Shown here one piece after another: positions 43,978 to 55,797 of a DNA stretch of 64,000 bases. Position 1 is the first letter of the stretch. Each line of letters begins with the position of its first letter. The notes beneath the pieces are model-generated. The model ran no database searches. It was given only the letters and a program-made list of their open reading frames with translations, and was not told the DNA's origin. The stretch is from positions 9,334-73,333 of the IMG/VR virus record IMGVR_UViG_3300036851_000172; one strand, given 5' to 3'. A program made the position numbers and the translations under genes. Origin of the DNA: a virus.

Positions 43978-44382
43978 TCAGCGTTTGGCTTGGGCTGGCG
44001 GCCGGAAATCGCCGTTGAGTTCCGGGAATGGAACGTGGGCCTGTTGGTCGCAGTGCCATGCGATATTGGAATTTACGACCTCCGGCGGCCTGCCGTCGTC
44101 ATAGATGCCGATCAAGTCGTCCTTCTCGCCCGTATAACCGCCGAACCCGCCCTTAGCGTTCAGGCGGACGCAGACGTGCCACATCATCCCCATGTGCCGG
44201 ACCGGTGCGGCGACGCTGGCGTTCTTGATGCTGTCCGGGTCTTTCCATAGGCGACCCTTATTGGCGAGGATGATGGCCTTGGCATCGGGTGGGGCGACCG
44301 CCGCTGCATCGCTATCCGTCGATGTGCGGCACGCTGCCGCACCGGCGGCCAGGCAGGCGATGAAACAGATTCGCCTGATCAC
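43978..44382 (-). CDS. lipoprotein co-transcribed with the repressor
   Basis: Lipobox AAAC; KDPDS...VC...NAK..FGGYTG. Confidence 0.65.
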   Translation of the reverse strand: MIRRICFIACLAAGAAACRTSTDSDAAAVAPPDAKAIILANKGRLWKDPDSIKNASVAAPVRHMGMMWHVCVRLNAKGGFGGYTGEKDDLIGIYDDGRPPEVVNSNIAWHCDQQAHVPFPELNGDFRPPAQAKR

Positions 44383-44723
44383 CTGCGTCTCCTAGATTGC
44401 GGCCCGCTGGTCGCCAGTGCCTGAAGCACCTCGATCGCCGTAGCTCGCCGTTCGGCCGGAATCGATTTCACGAGCGCTACAAGCTCGTCGCCGGTCACTG
44501 TTGCGCGCTTGTCGCCCTCACCGGTCAGTAGCCAACCGGCTGAGACGTTGAAGGCCTTCGCGTACAGCTCTGCCGCATCTTGCGGGATTTTGGCGGTCTG
44601 GCCGTTCTCGTGTGACGCGTAGGTCGAAGGGTGCCAGCGATGCCGCAGTGCCGCCGACCGCGCTGAGCGGAATCCAGCCTCTATTCGGGCTGTCCGGAGC
44701 CGATCTTTTGGGAGTTCCGCCAT
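44379..44723 (-). CDS. cI: CI-like repressor (HTH only, no S24 peptidase domain)
   Basis: RLR.AR..AGF.SA...STYASHENG...YA.AF.VS..WLLTGEG; divergent from the cro-like gene. Confidence 0.8.
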   Translation of the reverse strand: MAELPKDRLRTARIEAGFRSARSAALRHRWHPSTYASHENGQTAKIPQDAAELYAKAFNVSAGWLLTGEGDKRATVTGDELVALVKSIPAERRATAIEVLQALATSGPQSRRRR

Positions 44724-44748
44724 GCCCGCGAGTTTTCCACGGGACATT

Positions 44749-44791
44749 AACAGAAATCCTGTTGACTGACTTAACAGAAGTTCTGTAGATT
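44749..44791 (+). promoter_or_regulatory. OR operators and PR promoter
   Basis: AACAGAAATCCTGTT (44749-44763) and AACAGAAGTTCTGTA (44773-44787); TTGACT-18-TAGATT. Confidence 0.75.
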
Positions 44792-44799
44792 GCGATTCG

Positions 44800-45051
44800 A
44801 TGAACACGGACGCCTCACATCATACGGTCGCTGACGTGATCGACGCCTTCGGTGGCAACACCGGCTTTGCCCGGCTGCTCGCGCTCAAGAACCCATCGAA
44901 CGCCAGCGAGATGCGTCGGTCCGGGTCGATCCATGTGCGTTATTGGCCGGCGATCATTGATGAGGCGCGGAAGCGCGGCCCCGAGCTGGATTGGATTACG
45001 GCGGATGCGTTGATGTTCATGCACGCGCCGCAAGCCGAGGCCGCGCAATGA
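44800..45051 (+). CDS. cro: Cro-like repressor
   Basis: VIDAFGG....A..L......S....GSI...YW..II..A; probably leaderless. Confidence 0.75.
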   Translation: MNTDASHHTVADVIDAFGGNTGFARLLALKNPSNASEMRRSGSIHVRYWPAIIDEARKRGPELDWITADALMFMHAPQAEAAQ

Positions 45052-45053
45052 CA

Positions 45054-45308
45054 TCAGTGCAAGTTCGCATCGATGCCATTGATGGTGGGCGCCCGGCAGT
45101 TGGCGATCTCCTGCCACGATCGTCGCTGATCCTCCTCCAAGCCGATCAGTGGTCTGGTCAACGCGCCGACGATGCGACGTTGCCAGATGCCATTCAAACG
45201 GAACCAGTCCCACATCAAAAATCGGACCAATGGGCCGATCACGTAGCACTCGCTCATCGAGTGACAGTGAATTTCGGGATAGTTTCCGTCGTCGATCACA
45301 GGCTCCAT
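45054..45308 (-). CDS. antisense hypothetical protein
   Basis: GGAGG RBS; 84 aa; convergent with cro. Confidence 0.5.
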   Translation of the reverse strand: MEPVIDDGNYPEIHCHSMSECYVIGPLVRFLMWDWFRLNGIWQRRIVGALTRPLIGLEEDQRRSWQEIANCRAPTINGIDANLH

Positions 45309-45796
45309 GCGGTTGTCCCTCCGGTACGCACATCCACCGGTAAACAATGTACACAGAGGTGCTGTGATAAGAACATAGGCAATCTGACACCATTGCCGTA
45401 CGCTGTGGATTGTGCGCTGTTCCAATACGGAACCGGGCATTCCCTGATTGACAAATCGAACTTTCCAGTTCGGCACCGCGTGGGTGTAGCCCCCATCCGC
45501 AGCGGTGGGTGTGAGCCGGCGGTGACTCTGGCTTCCCGCGGTGCCGAAACCGTTTCAGCGTTGCGTCGCGTTCCTCCTGTTGGTGGCGCGTGCGCTCGCG
45601 TTGGCTCAGAGCGCCCGTCCCAACAGGAAAGGAACACAACGTCGCCGCGACGGGCAAACTGCGGCGCGGCCGATGGGTACGCGGGACAGTCGTCCCGACC
45701 GGCCGCGCCGCGTTCTTCCCTGATGGGAGTCGGGGGAGACGAGGCATCAGGGAATCCGTTGTTGTTGTCGTGTGTGTCGCGTGGGGGCGTTGCGTC

Positions 45797-46054
45797 ATGT
45801 CGAGCGAATCACTATCGAGTTCAGTTCCGGGAACAAGCGCAAAGAGGGGACAGTCTCGTCCCCGTAGGGACAAAATTGTCCCTCGCAAATTTGGGGCCGT
45901 CGCCAAGGTCTTATGGACCAAGCCGGCGGCCGTCATCGCCCACATCGCGGGATGCGACGTGCGAACCGGCAAGCGCATCTTGCGCGGCGAGGCGCCGATT
46001 CCCGTCATCGTCTTGCTGGAGGCCTGCAACGAGATGGTGCGCCCGCAGGAATGA
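45797..46054 (+). CDS. CII-like HTH protein
   Basis: KPAAVIAHIAGCDVRT.KR.LRGE; position after cro. Confidence 0.55.
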   Translation: MSSESLSSSVPGTSAKRGQSRPRRDKIVPRKFGAVAKVLWTKPAAVIAHIAGCDVRTGKRILRGEAPIPVIVLLEACNEMVRPQE

Positions 46055-46588
46055 CCAGCGGCAACCGGGTTACAGCCGCCCGGCGCGTGTGGCCCCGAAC
46101 GTGGAAAATTCGGGGCGCGCAATTTCACGGTACCCAGAGCGCATGAGCGCAAATCCCGGAGGCCGCAAGCCGAAGGGGCTGACAGGAACGGCGAGCGCGA
46201 GCGCTGTCCTGTCGGCGGATTATCTCGCGCCAGCCGACCCGGCGGCTGTTGAGGGCGTCTGCGGACGTGAGCCACCGGCGCTCCCATTCCTAGCGAACGC
46301 GCAATTGATCTGTGGCCCTATGAAGGAACCGACCCGCCGGGCTGTGGAGAGTATGAAACGTTGCGCTAGTAGGCTCGCTGCCGGGCGAACGGCAGTAGCG
46401 GTCGGAACGTCGGTTGTCGCCGACCGCACCCATTCCTTCCGAGGCCCTACGTCAACCGCCGTATTAGCCATTCAGGGACGGCCCGCGACCGAAAAGGCCT
46501 CGGCTCAGGCGTCGCCTGAATCAGGAGACGCCGGGCGGATGCAGGACCGATGCGTGTCCATCCGCCCACCTTTCATCCGAGGTGCCTC

Positions 46589-46825
46589 ATGAGCGACGGC
46601 ACGTACAAAGACTTCCTCTGCGAATACCCGTTCGACGGATCCACGTGGTCGTTCACGATCAAGGCCCGCGACCATGTGGAAGCGGAGGAACGGATCCGCC
46701 GCATGTGCTGGGCGGATGTGAAGGGTGAGATCTGTGCCGTCATTCCGGCATCGGTTCCGGGCGCCGGCTTGTTCGTCCGCGCGACCTGCTGGCTGCGGAA
46801 CACGTTCGTGCGAGGTGCGGCATGA
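46589..46825 (+). CDS. hypothetical protein
   Basis: GAGG RBS; F.CEY.FDG..W...I.A....EAE.R. Confidence 0.6.
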   Translation: MSDGTYKDFLCEYPFDGSTWSFTIKARDHVEAEERIRRMCWADVKGEICAVIPASVPGAGLFVRATCWLRNTFVRGAA

Positions 46826-47061
46826 GCCAACTGCTCGCGATCTACCTCGTCATCGGCGGCATGCTCTGGCTCTTGTCCGAGATGCTGATGGGCGCCACGC
46901 GCGTGGCGTACCTTGAGCGGCTCGATAAAGGCTATTCGGTTGGCTACGTGCGTGCGGTTGCCGTAGTCGCCATCAGCCTCATCATCGTGTGCTGGCCCAT
47001 GATTTACGTCGCCGCGATCGTGGGGACTGTCAGGGCGCTGTTGCGAGGTGAGACAACCTGA
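46822..47061 (+). CDS. two-TM membrane protein
   Basis: Hydrophobic segments, WP motif. Confidence 0.55.
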   Translation: MSQLLAIYLVIGGMLWLLSEMLMGATRVAYLERLDKGYSVGYVRAVAVVAISLIIVCWPMIYVAAIVGTVRALLRGETT

Positions 47062-47696
47062 TGACGTCCCTTTCTCGATCGGAGAGACTCATGAAAACTG
47101 AGACAGCAATCGGCGCAGCTATGGAGCGGGCCGGCTTCAATTCCGCGCAGTTGCGGCTACGCCAGGCCGGTCTGGATGCGCTCAGAAAGCATCATCGCAA
47201 CATAGGGCGTGCGGTTCCGACGCTGGAAATCGTCGTCGAAGACGATCCCGAACTGATCGGCGAGTTGGTGCTGAATTATCTTTGCGGTCTCGACGCCGAG
47301 GCCAACGGCGGCGGCCGCCCATGCACTGGTGACCAGACATCTGGTGCCGCCGCTCGCAACGGGGCGGGCCAGGCGTTTGATGCTCACCCGACGGGAAGTG
47401 CCCGCCCCGTTCGCGAACCCTCGGCCTCCGATCGTGCCGCGGCCAGCCGCGTCGCTGCGCAGATCGCTGTGACGATATTCGATCGCGCGAAGACTGCCGA
47501 CGGCCGCCCCTGGGGCAACGTCGGTGCTCACGAGCTTGATGGCATGGACCGCGACGGCGCGCTTGCGCGGGCGGTCAAGGCGCGACTGGGGCAACTCTCG
47601 AATCGCCAGCGTTTCCAGACATTGCGCGAGTTGATGGCGCCCGATGCCTTCGAGGCGTGCGTCGATGAGTTGCGGGAGCAATCGCATGACGCGTAA
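47061..47696 (+). CDS. hypothetical protein upstream of the Tas-like gene; carries two guide-like units
   Basis: Coupled ORF; the low-complexity middle part is the translation of the units at 47308-47411. Confidence 0.65.
   Translation: MTSLSRSERLMKTETAIGAAMERAGFNSAQLRLRQAGLDALRKHHRNIGRAVPTLEIVVEDDPELIGELVLNYLCGLDAEANGGGRPCTGDQTSGAAARNGAGQAFDAHPTGSARPVREPSASDRAAASRVAAQIAVTIFDRAKTADGRPWGNVGAHELDGMDRDGALARAVKARLGQLSNRQRFQTLRELMAPDAFEACVDELREQSHDA
47308..47411 (+). ncRNA. TIGR-like dual-spacer units 1-2
   Basis: GCGGCGGC-CG-cccatgcac-TGGTGACCA-gacatctgg-T-GCCGCCGC; AACGGGGCGGGC-CA-ggcgtttga-TGCTCACCC-gacgggaag-T-GCCCGCCCCGTT. Confidence 0.75.
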
Positions 47697-48843
47697 GAAC
47701 TCCATGAATGGCGGCGCGGGTGGCCACAGAGCAGATGTCACCGATGACCATCCTCGAGGTGCCTCCGCGCCGTCCCCCGACCTCGTCACAACCATCTCCG
47801 AAATTCGCTATTGGCATCACCAGCGGGTGTTCGCGATGGATCAGCGAAAGCGGGCTGATCTCGCGCTCGGCGCCTTCCTGCGGGGCGTATTGGGTTGGTC
47901 GAGATCGTTACCGAAGGCAGAGGCTGAGGCCATCAATAGGCGTGCCGCCGATCTCATCGAGACCGGCGAGCGGATGCTCAAGCAAAAGCAGGGCCGCCCG
48001 ATCCGTAAGACGGTCAACGGCGCCGATCCGCTCTATCAGGAGTGGGCGAGCTTCATCGAGGGATGCTTGAACGGGCGCGCGCACTATGTCGCGATCGAGG
48101 ATAAGGCGGTGGCCGAGATGGAACGCCTTGCGGCATTGCTGCCGGTCGCGTCTTGGTTCAACGCCAACGTCTTCTCATCCTCGTTCGTTTCGCTCGCGGT
48201 CATCATTGCGGAGACGGGCGACCTGTCTGGCTACGCCAACCCCGGCAAGGTCTGGAAGCGCATGGGCCTTGCCGTGATGAACGGCGTGCGCCAGGGCGGG
48301 TTGCGCAAGACCGCCTCGAAAGACGAATGGATCGCGCACGGGTATAGCGCCAAGCGCCGCTCGTTCATGTTCGTCATCGGCGATGTGCTGGTCAAGAAGC
48401 AGGGCTATTTGCGCGAGGTCTATCTCGGGGAAAAGCAAAAGCAGCGCACGAAGGCGGTGGCAGCGGGATTGACCGTCGCTCCGGCTGCCAAGATTCCGGA
48501 AAAGCGCAAGGCGGAATTCATCAGCGATGGCCACATCCACAAGATGTCCCAGCGCTATATGGAAAAACGTCTGCTCAAAAATCTTTGGCAGGCGTGGCGG
48601 CGGGCCACCCCGAATCTGGAAACCAGTGAATTAGTGCCCGCCGCAAAAATAGAACCGCAGGCCGTCTCTCTCGTGAATTCCATTGGAGGTTTGCCTGTGG
48701 AGCGCTCGGCCAGGCTCGTTCAGCCAACCATACAAAACGTGCCGAGCGCATCTATTCCGGCGAGAGCCGGTAAGCGGCGGGCCAGGATCGACGCGAACTC
48801 CAATGTACCAGTGCCCGCCGCAAATCTATCGCCTACAACCTAA
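47686..48843 (+). CDS. IS110-related Nop-domain protein without RuvC/HNH (TasA-like)
   Basis: Coiled coil, then LAVIIAETGDL..YANPGKVWKRMGLAV..G...YL.EK...GHIH....RYM.KRLL..LW.AWR; no N-terminal DEDD domain. Confidence 0.75.
   Translation: MTRKNSMNGGAGGHRADVTDDHPRGASAPSPDLVTTISEIRYWHHQRVFAMDQRKRADLALGAFLRGVLGWSRSLPKAEAEAINRRAADLIETGERMLKQKQGRPIRKTVNGADPLYQEWASFIEGCLNGRAHYVAIEDKAVAEMERLAALLPVASWFNANVFSSSFVSLAVIIAETGDLSGYANPGKVWKRMGLAVMNGVRQGGLRKTASKDEWIAHGYSAKRRSFMFVIGDVLVKKQGYLREVYLGEKQKQRTKAVAAGLTVAPAAKIPEKRKAEFISDGHIHKMSQRYMEKRLLKNLWQAWRRATPNLETSELVPAAKIEPQAVSLVNSIGGLPVERSARLVQPTIQNVPSASIPARAGKRRARIDANSNVPVPAANLSPTT
47710..47774 (+). ncRNA. TIGR-like dual-spacer unit 3 (extended loop)
   Basis: GGCGGCGCGGGTGGC-CA-cagagcaga-TGTCACCGATGACCA-tcctcgagg-T-GCCTCCGCGCCGTC. 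Confidence 0.7.
48597..48821 (+). ncRNA. TIGR-like array, units 4-7
   Basis: Units at 48597-48644, 48655-48700, 48702-48749 and 48774-48821, each stem-C(A/G)-N9-9 nt loop ending CCA-N9-TG-stem. Confidence 0.85.
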
Positions 48844-48907
48844 TAACAGTTCGTCGGGTTGCGTGATGTTGCTTGCGTATCGTTCACACGAATCGGGAGA
48901 AACGAAC

Positions 48908-50017
48908 GTGCAATTTCGCGATCATCCGGCCGTGCAAGGCAAGCGCGATTTCTATCCGGTCGATCCGCGCAAGCTCAAAGTGGACGACGCATACAATGTA
49001 AGAGACATGCAGGCGAAGGAGACGCGTGATCACATCGCCTGGCTGAAGGCATCGATCATCGCGGGCGGCGTGCACACTCCGCTGGAAGTCCGGCTCGACG
49101 GCAAGAATATCTTTGTCGTTGCAGGGCATTGCAGGCTGGCCGCCGTCCTCGAGGCGATCGAGGAAGGGAATCCGATCGCGACCGTACCCTGCATCCCGGA
49201 AGCCAAAGGTACCGACGAGATCGACCGCACGGTCAACCTAGTCATCTCGAATTCCGGCAAGCCGCTGTCACCATTGGAAGTGGCGAAGGTGGTCAAACGG
49301 CTCCAAGGCTACGGCTGGGAGCCGAAGCAGATCGCCGAACGGCTGGGCTGGAAGTCCACCAACACGGTCAAGCAACATCTCGACATGCTGGCGCTGCCGG
49401 AAGGCGTCAAGAAGCACGTCCGTGAAGGCAATGTCTCGGCGACGACAGCGCGTCATCTCGCGAAGGGCGTCGATCCGGACGAAGCCGAGAAGATGATCCA
49501 GGCGAACCTGGAAGAGAACCGGCGCATCAAGGGACCAAGGCGGCGAACGACAGTCACACGAAAAACGATCGAGCGGGACAGGCCGAAGCCGCGAGCGGCC
49601 GAGGCCAAGTACGAGCCCCAGCCAGTTCCGGAACCGGTAGCGGCATCGGAAACTGTTTCGATTGTTTTCGGCAAGTCTGGCGGCGCAGGTGGCGGCAACA
49701 GCCTTTCGTCGCAGCCTCCAGAGCAGATGCCGGCTCCGGTGGCTGAGCAGCGTGAGACATCAATTCAGCCAGCCAATCCCGACTGGAACGGCCCAACGCT
49801 CGCCGACTGCCAAGTTCGGATTGAGTCGTTCGAACGCCCGCCCGCAGGCGTCAAAGACCTCATCGACGCGCTCGCCCCCTTCGCCCACTGCGCCGAGTTG
49901 AATTTGCTCTATGCACGCGACGACAGCGAGGTGATCGAGGTTCTTGTCGGCGACATCAAGCGCGCTTGGAAGGCCTGGTCGAAGGCGACTGGCGCCGACG
50001 TGAAGGATGCAGCCTGA
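48908..50017 (+). CDS. ParB/Srx-domain protein with HTH
   Basis: NVR...LKASI..GGV..PL.V......VVAGHCRL.A; N.GKPL..LE.A....L...GW....IA.RLG. Confidence 0.8.
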   Translation: MQFRDHPAVQGKRDFYPVDPRKLKVDDAYNVRDMQAKETRDHIAWLKASIIAGGVHTPLEVRLDGKNIFVVAGHCRLAAVLEAIEEGNPIATVPCIPEAKGTDEIDRTVNLVISNSGKPLSPLEVAKVVKRLQGYGWEPKQIAERLGWKSTNTVKQHLDMLALPEGVKKHVREGNVSATTARHLAKGVDPDEAEKMIQANLEENRRIKGPRRRTTVTRKTIERDRPKPRAAEAKYEPQPVPEPVAASETVSIVFGKSGGAGGGNSLSSQPPEQMPAPVAEQRETSIQPANPDWNGPTLADCQVRIESFERPPAGVKDLIDALAPFAHCAELNLLYARDDSEVIEVLVGDIKRAWKAWSKATGADVKDAA

Positions 50018-50195
50018 TGGCGCGCTACCCGATCCTGCGCGCATCTGCGCATGTCCGCCACGCCACCGTGGTGGCTGCGGCCTGGTGGTGGTGCCCGCCG
50101 GTGATGATGGTGCGGTTGGCCGACCATGCCGACGTCGTCGATGACTTCTACGACGCGTTGGAAGGCAAGGACGACGACGATGAGGGCGCGGACTG

Positions 50196-50438
50196 ATGCA
50201 AATCACCCGCGCCAACATCGATGAGCTGCTGGATGCCGGCGCATTGCAATTCAACGGCGGCCCCTATGGCTGGCTCGTCATGCGCCGCGACGGGCCAACG
50301 GAACGAACGAGGCGAAGCATCTATCTCAACTACGAAGTCGGCGAATGTTTCCAGGTGTTCGGTGCGATCGGGGATTATGACTTCGATGTGAACGGCGGGG
50401 CGCTGTCGTCGTATTGGTATCGCGTGCGGTTGCAGTGA
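50196..50438 (+). CDS. hypothetical protein
   Basis: TGATG overlap; ITR.N...LD.G...RR.G.T. Confidence 0.5.
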   Translation: MQITRANIDELLDAGALQFNGGPYGWLVMRRDGPTERTRRSIYLNYEVGECFQVFGAIGDYDFDVNGGALSSYWYRVRLQ

Positions 50439-50456
50439 TCGACAGATGATTGAGAG

Positions 50457-50753
50457 GTGATACTTATGGCGACGCCTTTGGAAATAGACATCGCGCTTTG
50501 GTACTGCACGAGAGCTGGAGATTATGGCGCCCAGACGGGCGACTACAATTTCCTTGCGCCAGGAGTCCAAGACGCCTTTCAGCGCATGGTCGATGCTGGC
50601 TTGCTGAAGAAGCACGTTCCGAATAGCGACCTTCCACAACATTTCCACAACACCGAAGGCTTGCTGGTCTACGTCGAAGCGCTCTGCGCCATTCCTTGGC
50701 CGGAACAGCGCTGGGTCGTCCCCGACGTATCACACACCAAAGGTGAGCTATAG
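50457..50753 (+). CDS. hypothetical protein (wHTH-like)
   Basis: TP.EI...L.Y...T.G...V..LC..P.P...W. Confidence 0.5.
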   Translation: MILMATPLEIDIALWYCTRAGDYGAQTGDYNFLAPGVQDAFQRMVDAGLLKKHVPNSDLPQHFHNTEGLLVYVEALCAIPWPEQRWVVPDVSHTKGEL

Positions 50754-51104
50754 ATGAGCGAAGTCCGCATCCCGATCTTCATCCAGTGCCGCTCTGGTGA
50801 GAAGGCTATCGAGGCATGGGCGCGCAACGCCGATGCGCCGCTTGCCTGTCACCCTATCTACAACAACGCCAGTGACGACGGCGCCTGGATCATTACGCAT
50901 CGCAAGACCGGACTGGTCGTCAATCCTTCGCGCACCTATTCCAAGGATGACGCGCTGGCCCTGATCGATATTTACGCACCACTTGCCGATTGGGACGGCG
51001 AGCCGATGAAGGTCGCGGGACTGCGTGACGTGATCGAGGCCGCATATGAACAATTCGAGCCATCATCAAATACGCAACAATCGCTCACTCCGCATGAGCA
51101 ATAG
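50754..51104 (+). CDS. hypothetical protein
   Basis: W.ITH..TG motif. Confidence 0.5.
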   Translation: MSEVRIPIFIQCRSGEKAIEAWARNADAPLACHPIYNNASDDGAWIITHRKTGLVVNPSRTYSKDDALALIDIYAPLADWDGEPMKVAGLRDVIEAAYEQFEPSSNTQQSLTPHEQ

Positions 51105-51860
51105 ATGACGCAGCTCGTCCTCTCACTGTTTCCCGGCATTGGTCTGCTCGACATGGCTTTCGAGGAAGAGGGCTATTGCGTCGTACGCGGGCCGGATTTG
51201 CTCTGGGGTGGCGACATCAAACGCTTCCATCCGCCGGCCGGCAAGTTTGAGGGCATCATTGGCGGGCCGCCGTGTCAGGCATTCTCACGGCTGCGGCATA
51301 TCGTCGAGGCCAACGGCTACCAAGTCGCAGAGAACCTGATCCCGGAATTTGAGCGCGTTGTCGCTGAAGCGCAGCCGAAGTGGTTCCTGATGGAGAACGT
51401 CCCGGCCGCCCCGGCACCCTTCGTGCCCGGATACGTTGGGGTGTCAAGGATCACGCGCGATTATTGGGTCGGCGGCATTACCAACCGCGAGCGACGGTTC
51501 ACGTTCGCTGCATGGGGCTCGTGGGCAGCTGACGGCTTCCATCTGCCTAGCCTTGCTCTACACACGACCGAGCCTGAGCACTCGGCACTCGCGTCCGGCG
51601 GCGGTCGCCCCGTGCCCGTGGCCGTTGGTGGCAGCGGCAAGGTCAAGCGCAGCAAAAAAAGCGCGCTGAAAAACTACGGCTACAAGACCGCCGATGCCTT
51701 CGCAAACCATTGCCGGCTGCAAGGTCTGCCAGACGATTTTGACTTGCCGCCATTCTCGGTCGCCGCAAAGGTTAAGGCGGTTGGCAACGGTGTGCCGCTC
51801 GCAATGGGGCGCGCCGTAGCGAAGGCAGTCAAAGCCGCAAGTATAGCACACGACGAATAA
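51105..51860 (+). CDS. DNA cytosine-5 methyltransferase
   Basis: LSLFPGIG (I), GGPPCQ.FS (IV), ENV (VI), R.R (VIII), GNGV (X). Confidence 0.9.
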   Translation: MTQLVLSLFPGIGLLDMAFEEEGYCVVRGPDLLWGGDIKRFHPPAGKFEGIIGGPPCQAFSRLRHIVEANGYQVAENLIPEFERVVAEAQPKWFLMENVPAAPAPFVPGYVGVSRITRDYWVGGITNRERRFTFAAWGSWAADGFHLPSLALHTTEPEHSALASGGGRPVPVAVGGSGKVKRSKKSALKNYGYKTADAFANHCRLQGLPDDFDLPPFSVAAKVKAVGNGVPLAMGRAVAKAVKAASIAHDE

Positions 51861-51955
51861 TCAGACCGTTCTAGTTCCTGTCGCGTTTGTAGTTCCCCAG
51901 TCCAGTTGCATCAGTTGCGTGTTGCGTATCCCTCACATCGAAGGATCGATCACGC

Positions 51956-52561
51956 ATGGGTGTGCATTGGCCAGATGACGTCATCGATCGGCTGACGTCG
52001 CTGTGGAAGTCGGGCGCGTCGTGCTCCCGCATCGCCCAAAAGCTAAACGACAGATTCGGGATGGGGCTCACCCGCAATGCGGTGATCGGCAAAGTCCATC
52101 GGTTGAAGCTGGCGAGCAGGCCGCGGAAACCCGGTGAGCCGCCAGCCGAACGGGCACCGCGATCCGACACGGCAAAAGCATCGAAACGAATTCAGCTCAA
52201 GCGCAACCGCCCGAAGTGGGACGCGCAGACGCAATCCTTCGAACCCGAAACGGAGCCTCAAGTGGCGAGTGTTCTCATGTCCGATCTCGATATACCGAAG
52301 TCGCAGCGCAAGACGCTGATGCAGTTGACCGAGCACAGCTGCAGGTGGCCGGTCGGTGATGTCGGCGCTCCGGATTTCTTCTTCTGTGGTGCGGAGCCGA
52401 TGAAGGGTTGTGCGTATTGCGTGCCGCATCAGCATCGCTCGCTCAGCGGCAGCAGCCGCAACATCAGCGATGAGGAGCGGGCGCGGCGCGAGCAGTTCGG
52501 CGCCAAGGCGGCAGAGCGATTCCGTCAGGGTCGGCAAGCTTTCGAGCGGGTGGCGTCATGA
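51956..52561 (+). CDS. gcrA: GcrA-family cell-cycle regulator (phage B copy)
   Basis: W....L..LW..G.S...IA......TRNAVIGKVHRL; L.E..CRWPVGD....FFFCG......YC..H. Confidence 0.9.
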   Translation: MGVHWPDDVIDRLTSLWKSGASCSRIAQKLNDRFGMGLTRNAVIGKVHRLKLASRPRKPGEPPAERAPRSDTAKASKRIQLKRNRPKWDAQTQSFEPETEPQVASVLMSDLDIPKSQRKTLMQLTEHSCRWPVGDVGAPDFFFCGAEPMKGCAYCVPHQHRSLSGSSRNISDEERARREQFGAKAAERFRQGRQAFERVAS

Positions 52562-52959
52562 GCGCAGCAACCTCCTATCAGGCACCACCTCTCGGCGCTC
52601 TCTGCTATCTCGCGACGCCATATTCAAAGTATGCCGGCGGTCTCGATGCTGCGTTCCGCGATGCTGCGAAGCTCGCCGCGCTGCTCTTGCGCGCCGGAGT
52701 CAAGTGCTACAGCCCGATCGCACACACGCATCCGATCGCGGTTCACGGCAAGGTCGATCCGCTCGATCATTCAATCTGGCTGCCCTTCGATGAGGCCATG
52801 ATGCGTGCAGCCGACGTGCTGCTGGTCGCCGAGATGGACGGGTGGAAGGAAAGCAAAGGCGTCCTGCACGAGATCAACTTCTTCGCTACGGCTGGCAAGC
52901 CGGTGTTTTACCTCGATCCGGCGACGTTGACGATGCGCAAGCAGGCAAGGGCGGCATGA
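52558..52959 (+). CDS. DUF1937 / nucleoside deoxyribosyltransferase-like protein
   Basis: YLATPYS...SPIAHTH...W...D...GW.ES.GV..EI. Confidence 0.75.
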   Translation: MSAATSYQAPPLGALCYLATPYSKYAGGLDAAFRDAAKLAALLLRAGVKCYSPIAHTHPIAVHGKVDPLDHSIWLPFDEAMMRAADVLLVAEMDGWKESKGVLHEINFFATAGKPVFYLDPATLTMRKQARAA

Positions 52960-53198
52960 GCGATATCGATCTCGACGATGACGCCGACGACCGCGCCATC
53001 GCCCGCGAGCGCGCCGAGCGCACCATGCAGCGGCGCACCGAGACCTGCGCCATGCATTGGCAATTGCTTCAAGCCTTTCTCGGCCGGGCCTCCAGCATTG
53101 TCCGCGACGGCAGGAACGTGCGCGTGCAGTTTTCAGCCGAGATCGATGCGGAGCAGTTCGCGCAATTCATCGGCAGGAAGTGGGGCGTCAATGGCTGA
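52956..53198 (+). CDS. hypothetical protein
   Basis: ATGA overlap; coupled run. Confidence 0.5.
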   Translation: MSDIDLDDDADDRAIARERAERTMQRRTETCAMHWQLLQAFLGRASSIVRDGRNVRVQFSAEIDAEQFAQFIGRKWGVNG

Positions 53199-54174
53199 CA
53201 AGTCCGCCATCGAATGGACCGACGCGTCCTGGACGCCGATTCGCGCGCGCAACCTCAAGACCGGCAAGCTCGGCTGGCATTGCGAGCACGCCACGACCGG
53301 GTGCGAGTTCTGCTATTCCGAAGGATTCAACAAGCGGCTTGGCACTGGCCTCCAGTACAAACCCGGTCACCGCAAGGACATCGAGATATTCCTCGACGAA
53401 GACATGCTGAAGGCGCCATTGCGCTGGAAAAAGCCTCGCATGATCTTCGTCTGTTCGATGACCGACGCCTTTGGAGACTTCGTCAAGGACGAATGGCTCG
53501 ACAAGATGTTCGCCGTCATGGCGCTGTGTCCACAGCATACCTTCCAGGTGCTGACGAAGCGTGCGGAGGGGATGCGCGACTATCTGACATCAAAGAACGT
53601 CGCGACGCGGATTGCGCATCATTCAATCCTGTTGGCCGGTCCGCGAGAGGACCGCGTCATTTCCGAGCGGGTTCTTTGGTCAATCGGTTTGCGAGAAAAG
53701 CCGGTTCCGAACGGCTTCGTTAATTGGCCGCTTCCCAACCTATGGCTCGGAGTCTCCTGCGAACGTCAGCAGGAAGCCGATGAGCGCATTCCGTTTCTGT
53801 TGCAGATGCCGGCAGCGGTGCGATTCGTATCGGCTGAGCCGCTGTTGGGGGCGATTGATCTTCTCGGCAACCATTGGCTGACGCAATTCATTCCGGCCGA
53901 GGGCGAGCCATTTCCAGCACGGTTGGACTGGGTCATCGTCGGTGGTGAGAGCGGCCATAACGCGAGGCCGTTCCATATCGACTGGGCTGAATCGATTGTC
54001 GCTCAATGTGCCTATCGGGGCGTCGCCTGCTTCGTCAAGCAACTCGGCGCCTGCGCCATGTCGGACGGCTATCCGATGCACTACGCCGATCGCAAGGGCG
54101 GCGATTGGGACGAGTGGCCGGAGTCGCTGCGCGTCCGACAATTCCCAGTTGCCGCCCGCGAGGTCGCTGCATGA
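53191..54174 (+). CDS. DUF5131 (Gp37/Gp68) radical-SAM-like protein
   Basis: IEWTD.SW.P...C......C..CY...IFV.SM.D.F...H.FQVLTKR...RF.S.EPLLG...WVIVGGESG. Confidence 0.9.
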   Translation: MADKSAIEWTDASWTPIRARNLKTGKLGWHCEHATTGCEFCYSEGFNKRLGTGLQYKPGHRKDIEIFLDEDMLKAPLRWKKPRMIFVCSMTDAFGDFVKDEWLDKMFAVMALCPQHTFQVLTKRAEGMRDYLTSKNVATRIAHHSILLAGPREDRVISERVLWSIGLREKPVPNGFVNWPLPNLWLGVSCERQQEADERIPFLLQMPAAVRFVSAEPLLGAIDLLGNHWLTQFIPAEGEPFPARLDWVIVGGESGHNARPFHIDWAESIVAQCAYRGVACFVKQLGACAMSDGYPMHYADRKGGDWDEWPESLRVRQFPVAAREVAA

Positions 54175-54482
54175 CCCGCACCCGCGACACCTTCGACATG
54201 TTCTCCCCGCCGGACCGCGGCCGCTTCGGCGACAATGAATCCATCCGTGGCAACGACAGCGTCCGGTCGAACCTCTGCGATCTCGATCTGATCCTGCACA
54301 ACGACAATCCGCAAAAGAAGGCCATCGCTGTTTCGCTGGCCAAGGACACCCCGTTCGCGCGCTGGGCGTGGCTGCCACGATCGATGATCGAATACGAGAA
54401 GACCGGCATTGGCCGGGACGGCGGCGCATTGGTGCGGGTGACGCTGCCGGAGACATTGGCGAAGCAGAAGGGGTTGATATGA
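54171..54482 (+). CDS. hypothetical protein
   Basis: KAI.V...WLP.S.IE...VTLPE.LA..KGLI. Confidence 0.6.
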   Translation: MTRTRDTFDMFSPPDRGRFGDNESIRGNDSVRSNLCDLDLILHNDNPQKKAIAVSLAKDTPFARWAWLPRSMIEYEKTGIGRDGGALVRVTLPETLAKQKGLI

Positions 54483-55126
54483 CGGAGGACCGAAAACCGT
54501 TCTGGGTCAAGTGCCCGACGTGTTCCCACTGCTGGGCGGCGGTGTATGCCCCGATGGAGGTGCGAGCGTTCGCCGAGACCGTGATGGCAGCGCGGTGCCC
54601 GATGTGCGGCGAGACCAAGAAGATCGGTATCGCCAAACAGGATAACGGAAAGCTGCTTGAGAATTGCCCGCCCCCTTTGCCGGGTACTATTCCCGACGTT
54701 GCCGAGCGCTTGGTCGCGTGGCTGTCGTCGGGCGATACCGGCATTTCATCCAAGGCACTCGCCGCGCACATGAGCGGCCGCGAGGACGCGGACACGCGCG
54801 GGTGGGGTTGGCGTCATCCATCAGATCCAGACGACCTCGGACGCTGTCTGAGGCTGATCGAACTATTCCCGGAGTGGAAGGCTCGCATCGGCGAGATGGC
54901 GATGCACGGTCCCGGATGGGCAGGCCTTGTCAGGCGCTGGGATGAGATCGCCAAATCGATGACCGACGAAGTCGGCCTTGCGTGGGAGAAAGGGAAGCGG
55001 GCGCCGAAAACCTATGAGCTAATGCAAGTCGCCATCGGCGAAGGCTATCGCGCCGATCCGACCTTGGAATGCACCTTCGACGAACGCGGACATCTTCGCT
55101 CTGCGCAGAGCAAGAGCGCGGCATAG
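54479..55126 (+). CDS. zinc-ribbon fused phage protein
   Basis: CPTC.H...CPMCG; W...DTG.SS...P.D..D..RC..L. Confidence 0.6.
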   Translation: MTEDRKPFWVKCPTCSHCWAAVYAPMEVRAFAETVMAARCPMCGETKKIGIAKQDNGKLLENCPPPLPGTIPDVAERLVAWLSSGDTGISSKALAAHMSGREDADTRGWGWRHPSDPDDLGRCLRLIELFPEWKARIGEMAMHGPGWAGLVRRWDEIAKSMTDEVGLAWEKGKRAPKTYELMQVAIGEGYRADPTLECTFDERGHLRSAQSKSAA

Positions 55127-55137
55127 GACACGACATC

Positions 55138-55797
55138 ATGAACACCATCGGCAAGAACACGATCGCGGGCGAGCTGCTGCGCGGCTTCGTCGATCGCATC
55201 GAGCACATCAACGCCGAGATCAAGGAATTGCAGAACGACAAGGGCGTGGTATTGGCGGAAGCCAAGGCCGCGAACCTCGTGCCTGCTGGCATCAATTACA
55301 TCGTCAAGAAGCGCAAGATGAAGCCGTCCGAACGCGCCGAGGCGGAAGCGCTTGAAGACATGTACCTGCATTCCATGGGTATGGCAGCCGACAATCCGCT
55401 GTTCCGCGCCGTCGGCCTGATGAAGGTCGATATCACGGCGCGCGAATCCGTCATCGAGGCGATGAAGAAATTCGTTCCGGCGAACGGCTCGATCACGGTC
55501 GAGGCCGGCGGCGCGCCGGTCCGGCTCACGCGCGATGCCGACGGCAACATCAGCGTCACCGAGGTCATCGAGAAGCCGGTCGAGAGCGGCAAGCCCGGCA
55601 CCAGCAAGCGCACGCCGCCGCCGAAGCCTGATGTCCCGGACGTCGATGGCGATGGCGCGGAAGCACTCGGCCGCGCCGCGTTCAAGGCCGACGTGCCCAT
55701 CATCAACAATCCGTTTCCGTTCGGCGATAGCCGGCGGGCACGCTGGGATGAGGGCTGGCGCCACGAAGGCGGCGGCGATGGCATGGGCGACGACTGA
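55138..55797 (+). CDS. GapR (DUF2312)-like nucleoid protein with RMF-like C-terminal motif
   Basis: LRGFVDRIE....E..E...D...V.AEAK...E...L..Y...G; C-terminal GR.A...NPF.......W..GW. Confidence 0.75.
   Translation: MNTIGKNTIAGELLRGFVDRIEHINAEIKELQNDKGVVLAEAKAANLVPAGINYIVKKRKMKPSERAEAEALEDMYLHSMGMAADNPLFRAVGLMKVDITARESVIEAMKKFVPANGSITVEAGGAPVRLTRDADGNISVTEVIEKPVESGKPGTSKRTPPPKPDVPDVDGDGAEALGRAAFKADVPIINNPFPFGDSRRARWDEGWRHEGGGDGMGDD

What the first reader, a model, noticed from the sequence alone, without database searches (positions are those of the whole stretch)
47061..48843. Guide units are embedded in protein-coding frames (dual-coding array)
Seen: none of the seven units is intergenic. 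Two sit mid-gene in 47061-47696, one is in the first 30 codons of the Tas-like ORF, and four form its last roughly 79 codons after the motif LWQAWRR, with no in-frame stop until 48841. Each unit has its own closing stem instead of a shared repeat (only units 4 and 7 share GCGGCGGGC), and a GNRA hairpin CCGGC-GAGA-GCCGG separates units 6 and 7. Repeat finders would miss this. Inference: guides are excised from the mRNA, so maturation would cut the tas transcript (built-in negative feedback), and spacers must stay free of in-frame stops.
Basis: partly seen in the sequence, partly recalled or inferred. Interest (0 to 1): 0.8.

Follow-up and report, generated by a model that had tools for sequence, protein, structure and literature searches.

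The report
Guide RNAs embedded in phage genes
A soil phage carries a nuclease-free TIGR-Tas RNA-guided DNA-binding system whose seven guide-RNA hairpins lie inside the reading frames of the tasA gene and of a conserved neighbouring gene; guides inside tas were described in a 2026 preprint, so this is mainly a well-supported new example.

Summary
All seven hairpins exist on the + strand. Each parses as a stem-loop tigRNA: box C (CCA-like), 9-nt spacer, box D (TG-like), a 4- or 10-nt gap, box C, 9-nt spacer, TG, closed by a unit-specific stem.

The ORF is a TasA. A profile of its family matches the Nop domain of TaTasR (PDB 9MTY) at E=4.4e-12, and no nuclease domain was found. Around homologs, such units occur 524 times on the tas strand against 40 on the other, and the stems covary.

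Dual coding is real for units 1-4.
- Units 1-2 lie between two conserved domains of an upstream partner gene. These domains share one uninterrupted frame in 26 of 26 loci.
- Unit 3 lies between every usable start codon and the conserved core.
- Unit 4's 5' arm is the conserved W-R-R-A codons.

Units 5-7 sit in a non-conserved tail. Homolog ORFs end a median of 25 codons after WxxW, and 76 of 148 3' units lie beyond the stop.

Excision from the mRNA and negative feedback are untested. Guides inside tas are already in print (Xu et al., bioRxiv, Sept 2026). Units inside a second conserved gene, with a near-fixed codon phase, appear to be new.

The parts
47061..47696 (+). Conserved partner gene (211 aa, no known family). 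N- and C-terminal domains flank a hypervariable middle that holds U1 and U2. Its stop overlaps the likely tasA start.
   Evidence: tblastn finds it upstream of tas in 24 loci. 29 database proteins match. Alignment A2. N and C domains share one frame in 26 of 26 loci. No Pfam, PHROG or PDB match.
47307..47354 (+). tigRNA unit 1: CCG-CCCATGCAC-TG-GTGA-CCA-GACATCTGG-TG, 9-bp stem
47358..47411 (+). tigRNA unit 2: 12-bp stem. Its 3' arm encodes A-R-P-V of the PVREP motif, whose P116 is nearly invariant.
47686..48843 (+). tasA (386 aa from ATG 47686, MTRK, with GGGAG 10 nt upstream). Other in-frame starts: 47644, 47665, 47704. The Nop-type core runs about 47794-48597. No nuclease domain was found.
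   Evidence: Profile against 9mty_A (TaTasR), E=4.4e-12. phrog_4285 at 3.5e-14. 468 homologs. Start codons.
47710..47774 (+). tigRNA unit 3: perfect boxes (CCA-9-TG, 10-nt gap, CCA-9-TG). The stem has one bulge. It lies inside the tasA 5' coding region.
48597..48644 (+). tigRNA unit 4: the 5' arm GCGGCGGGC is the W-R-R-A codons that end the conserved core. The 3' arm encodes VPAA.
48655..48700 (+). tigRNA unit 5: 8-bp stem with G-U pairs, box C variant CCG
   Evidence: (compensatory change against L055)
48702..48749 (+). tigRNA unit 6: 9-bp stem GCGCTCGGC/GCCGAGCGC, inner box D variant AG
48757..48770 (+). Linker hairpin CCGGC-GAGA-GCCGG between U6 and U7
   Evidence: Folds. L055 has CCCGC-GAAA-GCGGG at the aligned place, which is a compensatory change. 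Not recurrent in the other loci.
48774..48821 (+). tigRNA unit 7: perfect boxes, same stem as U4
48908..50017 (+). ParB-like gene directly downstream
   Evidence: PF17762 at 1.5e-10, phrog_1033 at 7.6e-50. No homolog in the 134 related loci.

Best explanation
This is a stem-loop TIGR-TasA locus in the early operon of a temperate soil phage. TasA is a Nop-domain protein without a nuclease. By analogy with characterised TasA proteins, it should bind as a dimer to one hairpin tigRNA. The two 9-nt spacers would pair with opposite strands of a DNA target, so that the complex binds DNA, and probably represses it, without cutting.

The seven tigRNA genes are not in an intergenic array. They are written into reading frames.
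- Two lie in the variable middle of a conserved upstream partner gene.
- One lies between the tasA start and its conserved core.
- One overlaps the last conserved tasA codons.
- Three more follow in a non-conserved C-terminal tail.

What is shown: the units, their family-wide association with tas and their strandedness, stem covariation, and the necessity of translating through U1-U4.

What is inferred:
- The segments encoded by the units are tolerated, probably disordered, linkers or tails whose sequence is set by the RNA.
- The tail over U5-U7 is open by tolerance, not by selection.
- The units are cut out of the operon transcript, so that guide production and translation of the partner and of tasA compete.

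The confidence given is for the identity of the locus and the overlap of units with translated frames. The processing and coupling steps are less certain.
For: Units.
- All 7 meet the published stem-loop definition: box C CNA, 9-nt spacer, box D TG/CG, gap of at most 15 nt, stem of at least 5 bp (definition read). Each has at most one variant box.
- The strict pattern gives 6 on + and 0 on - in the window, and 219 against 5 in the window stretch plus the 134 loci. A TIGRFinder-like detector gives 524 against 40, with units in 115 of 135 sources.

Stems.
- 88% of cells are paired against 57% in shuffles, and 0 of 500 shuffles reach this.
- The outer pairs that my selection did not require are paired in 122, 133 and 135 of 149 sequences.

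Protein.
- The profile of 40 homologs matches TaTasR 9mty_A, residues 154-295, at E=4.4e-12. 9MTY is TaTasR.

Coding.
- The partner's N and C domains lie in one stop-free frame in 26 of 26 sources (23 of 23 without duplicates), separated by 84-480 nt. That frame holds 0-5 units.
- No in-frame ATG, GTG or TTG lies between U3 and the conserved core.
- 38 of 41 units that overlap the core end lie wholly inside the ORF.

RNA dictates the sequence.
- Codon-position GC is flat in the unit segments (0.62/0.57/0.60; 0.76/0.76/0.66) and periodic in the cores (0.60/0.43/0.79).
- The window and L055 tails share stems, or carry compensatory changes, while the spacers are unrelated.
Against: - Nop membership therefore rests on sequence profiles only.
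- There are no RNA data, so expression, processing and coupling to translation are not shown.
- No target was found. The 73-kb contig gives only 3-mismatch matches, no more than the control arrangements. Exact 18-mers in IMG/VR are at the level I would expect by chance.
- The CUU motif that Xu et al. place at stem bases is not at the stem bases here. The only CTT nearby is 9 nt upstream of U4 (read).
- For U5-U7 nothing shows selection for an open frame.
- 109 of 442 non-redundant units in related loci lie in no long open frame, so embedding is common but not obligatory.
Confidence: 0.85

Rival explanations
1. The units are real tigRNAs, but they come from their own promoters inside the genes, not from cutting the mRNA. 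Guide output and Tas or partner translation are then not coupled, and there is no feedback.
For: Xu et al. state that sequence alone cannot separate processing of a long transcript from internal promoters.
Against: The sigma-70-type scan found one promoter-like site in 44500-50200, at 44762-44791 upstream of the whole operon, and none inside the genes (a weak consensus scan). Units are 3-24 nt apart, which leaves no room for separate promoters.
Confidence: 0.25
2. The C-terminal 81 codons are open only by chance in GC-rich DNA. Functionally the array U5-U7 is a 3' untranslated array that happens to be read through.
For: After WxxW the tas frame is no longer than the others across 82 non-redundant loci (medians 25, 36.5, 18). 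A run of 80 codons or more occurs in 8, 18 and 5 of 82. 76 of 148 3' units lie beyond the stop, in all three phases (20:32:24). The tail's codon-position GC is flat. A second frame is also open from 48683 on.
Against: All four 3' units of the window share one codon phase, with spacings of 57, 48 and 72 nt. Among 3' units inside tas ORFs, phase 1 outnumbers phase 2 by 60 to 12. The closest relative, L055, keeps 130 codons open over its units.
Confidence: 0.55
3. The palindromes are not RNA genes. They are a by-product of low-complexity Gly/Ala/Pro/Arg-rich linkers in two proteins.
For: The segments are rich in G, A, P, S and R, and lie where disordered linkers would be expected.
Against: The same units occur outside any long open frame (109 of 442) and beyond stops in all phases. 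The box motifs and the 9-nt spacing are fixed while the peptides are not. The pattern is strand-specific and covaries.
Confidence: 0.03
4. The ORF is an IS110-type transposase and the hairpins are parts of a bridge RNA or transposon ends.
For: The PHROG label is 'transposase'. One homolog carries PF02371. The PDB title of 9mty_A names the IS110 C-terminal domain.
Against: No Pfam family matched the protein, so no DEDD/RuvC-like N-terminal domain was found. 9MTY is TaTasR, not a transposase. The seven tandem dual-spacer units are not a single bridge RNA of about 180 nt (the size is recalled). Rfam, at its release 15, gave no hit.
Confidence: 0.02

Closest known systems
Stem-loop TIGR-TasA systems with intragenic tigRNAs (BlTasA, PlTasA; Xu et al. 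bioRxiv 10.64898/2026.09.09.750476; Guan et al. bioRxiv 10.64898/2026.08.11.744272; Faure et al. 2025, PMC12045711)
   Same: Nop-only Tas protein. [quoted passage not shown] Unit-specific stems. A 9-nt region between the spacers (box D, 4 nt, box C). Units at the 5' and 3' ends of the tas coding sequence without breaking the frame.
   Different: Two units also lie inside a second, conserved, non-tas gene. Codon phase is nearly fixed for each host gene. No CUU at the stem bases. A ParB-like gene follows. I could not see the figures, the supplements or TIGRSafari, so I cannot say whether this clade is already catalogued.
TaTasR (PDB 9MTY), a dual-repeat TIGR nuclease
   Same: Homologous C-terminal Nop domain (E=4.4e-12), including the SDGH..(R/K)..W helix.
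   Different: The window protein has no RuvC domain, no edge or loop repeats, and hairpin rather than 36-nt guides.
tasA-tasParB operons (Faure et al. 2025, passages)
   Same: tasA is directly followed by a ParB-like gene.
   Different: Those operons have dual-repeat arrays. Here the ParB-like gene has no homolog in the 134 related loci, so the pairing is not conserved in this clade.
IS110 bridge RNA recombinases
   Same: Distantly related RNA-binding domain (Transposase_20 / Nop-like).
   Different: No recombinase domains, many tandem guides, and no transposon ends were sought or seen.
CRISPR arrays
   Same: Tandem guides with variable spacers next to an effector gene.
   Different: No shared direct repeat, two short spacers in each unit, no adaptation genes, and guides inside coding frames.

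Membership tests
TIGR-Tas (stem-loop, TasA) | Effector with a Nop-type RNA-binding domain | tested here: met
   Profile A1 against 9mty_A (TaTasR): E=4.4e-12 over chain residues 154-268, plus 269-295. The single sequence gives E=0.022. This is sequence only. The fold was not testable because structure prediction was off.
TIGR-Tas (stem-loop, TasA) | No HNH or RuvC nuclease domain (this defines TasA) | tested here: met
   No Pfam family matched at E<=1. The N-terminal half of the profile has no significant match to TaTasR's RuvC part. This is negative evidence only.
TIGR-Tas (stem-loop, TasA) | Units of box C (CNA), 9-nt spacer, box D (TG/CG), twice, at most 15 nt apart, closed by a stem of at least 5 bp (TIGRFinder definition) | tested here: met
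   7 of 7 units parse. U3, U4 and U7 have perfect boxes. U1, U2, U5 and U6 have one variant box each.
TIGR-Tas (stem-loop, TasA) | Units on the tas strand, next to or inside tas, recurring with homologs | tested here: met
   524 on + against 40 on -, in 115 of 135 sources.
TIGR-Tas (stem-loop, TasA) | Stems kept by compensatory change, spacers hypervariable | tested here: met
   (0 of 500 shuffles reach the observed value). (window against L055).
TIGR-Tas (stem-loop, TasA) | Transcription and processing into discrete tigRNAs bound by Tas | not testable with these tools
   No RNA run is listed for this DNA.
TIGR-Tas (stem-loop, TasA) | CUU at the stem base as processing mark (reported as frequent and clade-dependent) | tested here: not met
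   Reading the linkers: no CTT at any stem base. One CTT lies 9 nt upstream of U4. Xu et al. present this as a frequent feature, not a defining one.
IS110 / bridge-RNA recombinase | DEDD RuvC-like N-terminal domain plus catalytic C-terminal domain, and a single bridge RNA | tested here: not met
   No Pfam match at all. There are tandem dual-spacer hairpins instead.
CRISPR array | Identical direct repeats separated by spacers | tested here: not met
   No direct-repeat family. TRF returned 0 rows.

The most novel reading that the evidence does not exclude
In this Tas clade the guide array has colonised a second protein: a conserved partner gene of unknown function, always just upstream of tasA. 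That gene carries 0-5 tigRNA units between its two domains. The units sit in an almost fixed codon phase (43 of 47), and the 3' arm of the last unit encodes part of the PVREP motif, whose proline is nearly invariant. If the units are cut from the operon mRNA, every guide made destroys a partner or tasA message. Guide supply, partner dosage and effector dosage would then be wired together in one transcript. This arrangement goes beyond the 'intragenic tas' cases in print, and it might point to the partner as a maturation or loading factor.
Probability: 0.4. Interest if true: 0.65.

Novelty: new member of a known kind. Interest (0 to 1): 0.5.

Why it matters
TIGR-Tas is a young family of compact, PAM-free RNA-guided DNA binders. 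How its guides are made, and why some sit inside genes, is an open question in the 2026 literature.

This locus and its roughly 130 relatives give comparative evidence that translation really runs through guide units. Two conserved domains stay in one frame across inserts of 84-480 nt. The evidence also shows where that constraint stops.

It adds a conserved partner gene that hosts guides. That is a concrete handle for testing whether guide maturation and translation are coupled. It also shows that a reader working from sequence alone can recover such repeat-less arrays.

Tried and rejected
- Expression. The look-up of sequencing runs listed one DNA run from a soil metagenome, possibly the source, and no RNA holder.
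- Self-targets.
- I searched the 73-kb contig for spacer pairs in both opposite-strand arrangements, with gaps of 0-3 nt and up to 3 mismatches. The second used the corrected register.
  - Only 3-mismatch matches appeared, no more than in the control arrangements. Rejected as chance.
- Targets in IMG/VR.
  - For U4, one arrangement gave 3 exact 18-mers and the other gave 0.
  - Two of the three hits are the same region of related contigs, and all three lie in DNA of 43-50% GC.
  - By my own arithmetic a few hits are expected by chance in a collection of that size. Not pursued for other units.
- GNRA linker hairpin as a family-wide element. It is not recurrent in the fetched loci and is supported only by L055.
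- ParB as a conserved partner. No tblastn hit in the 134 loci.
- Partner function. No Pfam match in 0 of 25 members, no PDB match, and only Atlas structure rows below TM 0.5 on a low-confidence model.
- Rfam. No family at E<=1.
- Two further hairpins at 46275-46340 and 46407-46462 were checked by eye. They lack the box motifs and are not counted as units.
- Supplements and figures of the papers were not seen. They may list this clade, its partner gene or natural targets.
Full report
**What is there**

The stretch 47061-48843 holds two + strand ORFs: 47061-47696 (211 aa) and 47644-48843 (399 aa at most). A ParB-like gene follows at 48908-50017.

A scan for perfect hairpins found five with stems of 8-12 bp and exactly 30 nt between the arms, all between 47308 and 48821. 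A motif taken from them (stem..GGC|C-N9-NNGNNNNCC-N9-(G/T)T|GCC..stem) occurs six times on the + strand of the 64-kb window and never on the - strand. The seventh unit, in the 5' part of the second ORF, has a 36-nt interior.

Xu et al. [quoted passage not shown] Read this way, all seven units parse.
- U3, U4 and U7 have perfect boxes. The other four have one variant box each.
- U3 differs only in having a 10-nt rather than a 4-nt central gap.
- RNA folds reproduce every closing stem, with z-scores of -2.8 to -3.5.
- TRF finds nothing, and the direct-repeat search finds only chance pairs.

**The protein**

Pfam gives nothing. PHROGs gives a family labelled 'transposase' (phrog_4285, 3.5e-14).

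There were 468 homologs at E<=1e-3 among the 8000 candidates scored. The best 120 are 290-485 aa long and almost all lack any Pfam domain.

A profile of 40 of them matches one PDB sequence, 9mty_A, at E=4.4e-12 over its C-terminal domain. 9MTY is the TaTasR structure of Faure et al. 2025. So the ORF is a Tas protein by sequence. With no nuclease domain detected, it is a TasA.

**Association of units with the family**

I fetched 134 loci around homologs: 15 from genomes, 39 viral and 80 from metagenomes.
- The strict 30-nt pattern occurs 219 times on the tas strand and 5 times on the other, in 726,073 bases that include a 10-kb stretch of the window.
- A broader detector built on the published definition gives 524 against 40, with at least one unit in 115 of 135 sources.
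- On 149 units (6 from the window plus 143 drawn at random from 184 non-redundant ones), 88% of the ten stem pairs are paired against 57% after shuffling, and 0 of 500 shuffles reach this.
- The three outer pairs next to those my selection required are paired in 122, 133 and 135 of 149 sequences, with many changes on both sides.
- Rfam has no matching family.

**Are the units really inside translated frames?**

*(a) The partner gene.*
- The 211-aa ORF has homologs directly upstream of tas in 24 loci by tblastn, and 29 database proteins match it.
- Its alignment shows an N-terminal region, a strongly conserved C-terminal domain, and a middle of very variable length.
- I searched the two domains independently against stop-to-stop frames. 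They were both found in 26 sources, and in 26 of 26 they lie in the same uninterrupted frame, 84-480 nt apart. This is 23 of 23 after removing L004, L058 and L086, which duplicate L003, L016 and L048.
- Two independent small genes flanking a non-coding array would share a frame about one time in three.
- The frame upstream of the C domain holds 0-5 detected units in 41 non-redundant loci.
- In the window, the 3' arm of U2 encodes A-R-P-V of the motif PVREP, whose P116 is nearly invariant.

*(b) The tasA 5' end.*
- In-frame starts lie at 47644, 47665, 47686 and 47704. The next ones, at 47827 and 47836, are inside the conserved core.
- U3 (47710-47774) must therefore be translated.
- The ATG at 47686 gives MTRK, like the MPRK, MSRK and MARK starts of many homologs. 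It has GGGAG 10 nt upstream and overlaps the partner's stop.

*(c) The tasA 3' end.*
- The 5' arm of U4 is the codons W-R-R-A. W298 is invariant and R299 nearly so. The 3' arm gives VPAA, which recurs in homologs.
- Of 41 units that overlap the core end, 38 lie wholly within the ORF.

*(d) Units 5-7.*
- Here the evidence turns. After WxxW the tas frame runs a median of 25 codons in 82 non-redundant loci, against 36.5 and 18 for the other frames. It is the longest frame in 21 of 82. The frame runs 80 codons or more in 8 of 82, and the window's 81 codons are among these.
- Of 148 3' units, 72 lie inside the tas ORF and 76 beyond its stop. Those beyond the stop are in all three phases (20:32:24).
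- The long tail is therefore a tolerated read-through, not a conserved feature.

**What sets the sequence of the embedded segments**

Codon-position GC is periodic in the tasA core (0.60/0.43/0.79), in parB (0.66/0.45/0.74) and in the partner's C domain (0.74/0.52/0.76). It is flat in the tail (0.62/0.57/0.60), in the U3 segment (0.64/0.61/0.67) and in the partner's middle (0.76/0.76/0.66).

The tails of the window and of its closest relative L055 (59% protein identity) align unit by unit.
- Stems are identical or changed in a compensatory way (GCAGGC/GCCTG against GCAGAC/GTCTG).
- The linker hairpin is CCGGC-GAGA-GCCGG against CCCGC-GAAA-GCGGG.
- The spacers have nothing in common.

The recurring tail words in homologs (WRRA, VPAA, AERSA, SIPAKAGKRR) are translations of stems. 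The RNA is the constrained layer.

**An unexplained regularity**

Embedded units have a strong phase preference.
- Box C starts at codon position 3 in 43 of 47 units in partner frames.
- The same phase holds for 32 of 43 units in tas 5' regions.
- Box C starts at codon position 2 in 60 of 72 units in tas 3' regions.

Avoiding the TGA formed by the inner box D excludes one phase only. Shared descent, in-frame duplication or peptide constraints could explain the rest. I did not separate these.

**Context and function**

The assembly is a single 73,333-base contig. It carries portal, scaffold, virion and endolysin genes, a primase/helicase, methyltransferases and a cI-like repressor at 44379-44807 on the - strand. 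A promoter-like site faces the operon at 44762-44791. So this is a temperate phage, from soil by the one DNA run that holds it.

Homologs occur in Hyphomicrobiales genomes (Aminobacter, Mesorhizobium, Rhodoplanes, Bauldia, Hyphomicrobium, Zhengella) and in viral contigs.

No target of the spacers was found in the contig. Exact matches in IMG/VR are at chance level.

By analogy, the most likely activity is RNA-guided DNA binding and repression. The analogy rests on two readings:
- TasA and dead TasR proteins act as transcriptional repressors (abstract and discussion of Xu et al.).
- PlTasA forms 9-bp heteroduplexes on both DNA strands (section 5 of Guan et al., bioRxiv 10.64898/2026.08.11.744272).

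**Comparison with what is known**

Faure et al. 2025 (PMC12045711; passages and section 6 read) described stem-loop arrays and tasA-parB operons.

Xu et al. 2026 (abstract, sections 5, 7, 11, 13 and passages) state three things:
- BlTasA intragenic units are seen by small-RNA sequencing.
- This may link maturation to translation.

A search for 'tigRNA' together with 'intragenic' found only that paper. The central idea of the finding is therefore in print.

I did not find, in the text I could read, units inside a second conserved gene, or the phase regularity. Figures, supplements and TIGRSafari were not visible.

**Verdict**

This is a new member of a known kind, with a possibly new twist in the partner gene.

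Noticed in passing
window 45050-46550: About 1.5 kb between a small cro-like ORF and the operon's first recognisable genes has no PHROG hit for either of the two long overlapping ORFs (533 aa on +, 490 aa on -). It holds two hairpins with 30-32 nt between the arms (46275-46340, 46407-46462). [quoted passage not shown]
   Followed up: partly
window 44379-44807 (-) and 44762-44791 (+): A cI-like repressor (phrog_4, 1.7e-10) lies divergent from the operon, with the only sigma-70-like site of the region facing the operon. The TIGR-TasA locus therefore sits in the early operon of a temperate phage.
   Followed up: partly
window 48908-50017: A ParB-like gene directly follows tasA, which recalls the tasParB operons of Faure et al. 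However, no homolog of it lies within 3-4 kb of tas in any of the 134 related loci.
   Followed up: partly
related loci, all embedded units: The codon phase of embedded units is strongly biased: 43 of 47 in partner frames, 32 of 43 in tas 5' regions and 60 of 72 in tas 3' regions. This is more than avoidance of the in-frame TGA requires.
   Followed up: partly
L003 and L004 (Rhodoplanes elegans scaffold0074, 46829-55725 and 109935-118831): Two copies of the locus on one scaffold, about 63 kb apart, have the same match coordinates and the same unit positions. This may be a duplicated prophage or two related prophages.
   Followed up: no
L001 3520-3720, L002 3480-3730, L016 3520-3730, L005 3300-3560: In other branches of the family the gap between the two spacers is 8-13 nt (TGCCG...AAGGCCA-like) and could form a small inner hairpin. 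U3 of the window has the same layout. In one search, 338 of 524 units have a 4-nt gap and about 150 have 7-10 nt.
   Followed up: partly
L135 1434-1451, L136 1767-1784, L137 1192-1209: These are exact 18-nt matches to one opposite-strand arrangement of the two U4 spacers, all with no gap, in IMG/VR contigs of 43-50% GC. Two of them are the same region of related contigs. I judged them to be chance.
   Followed up: partly
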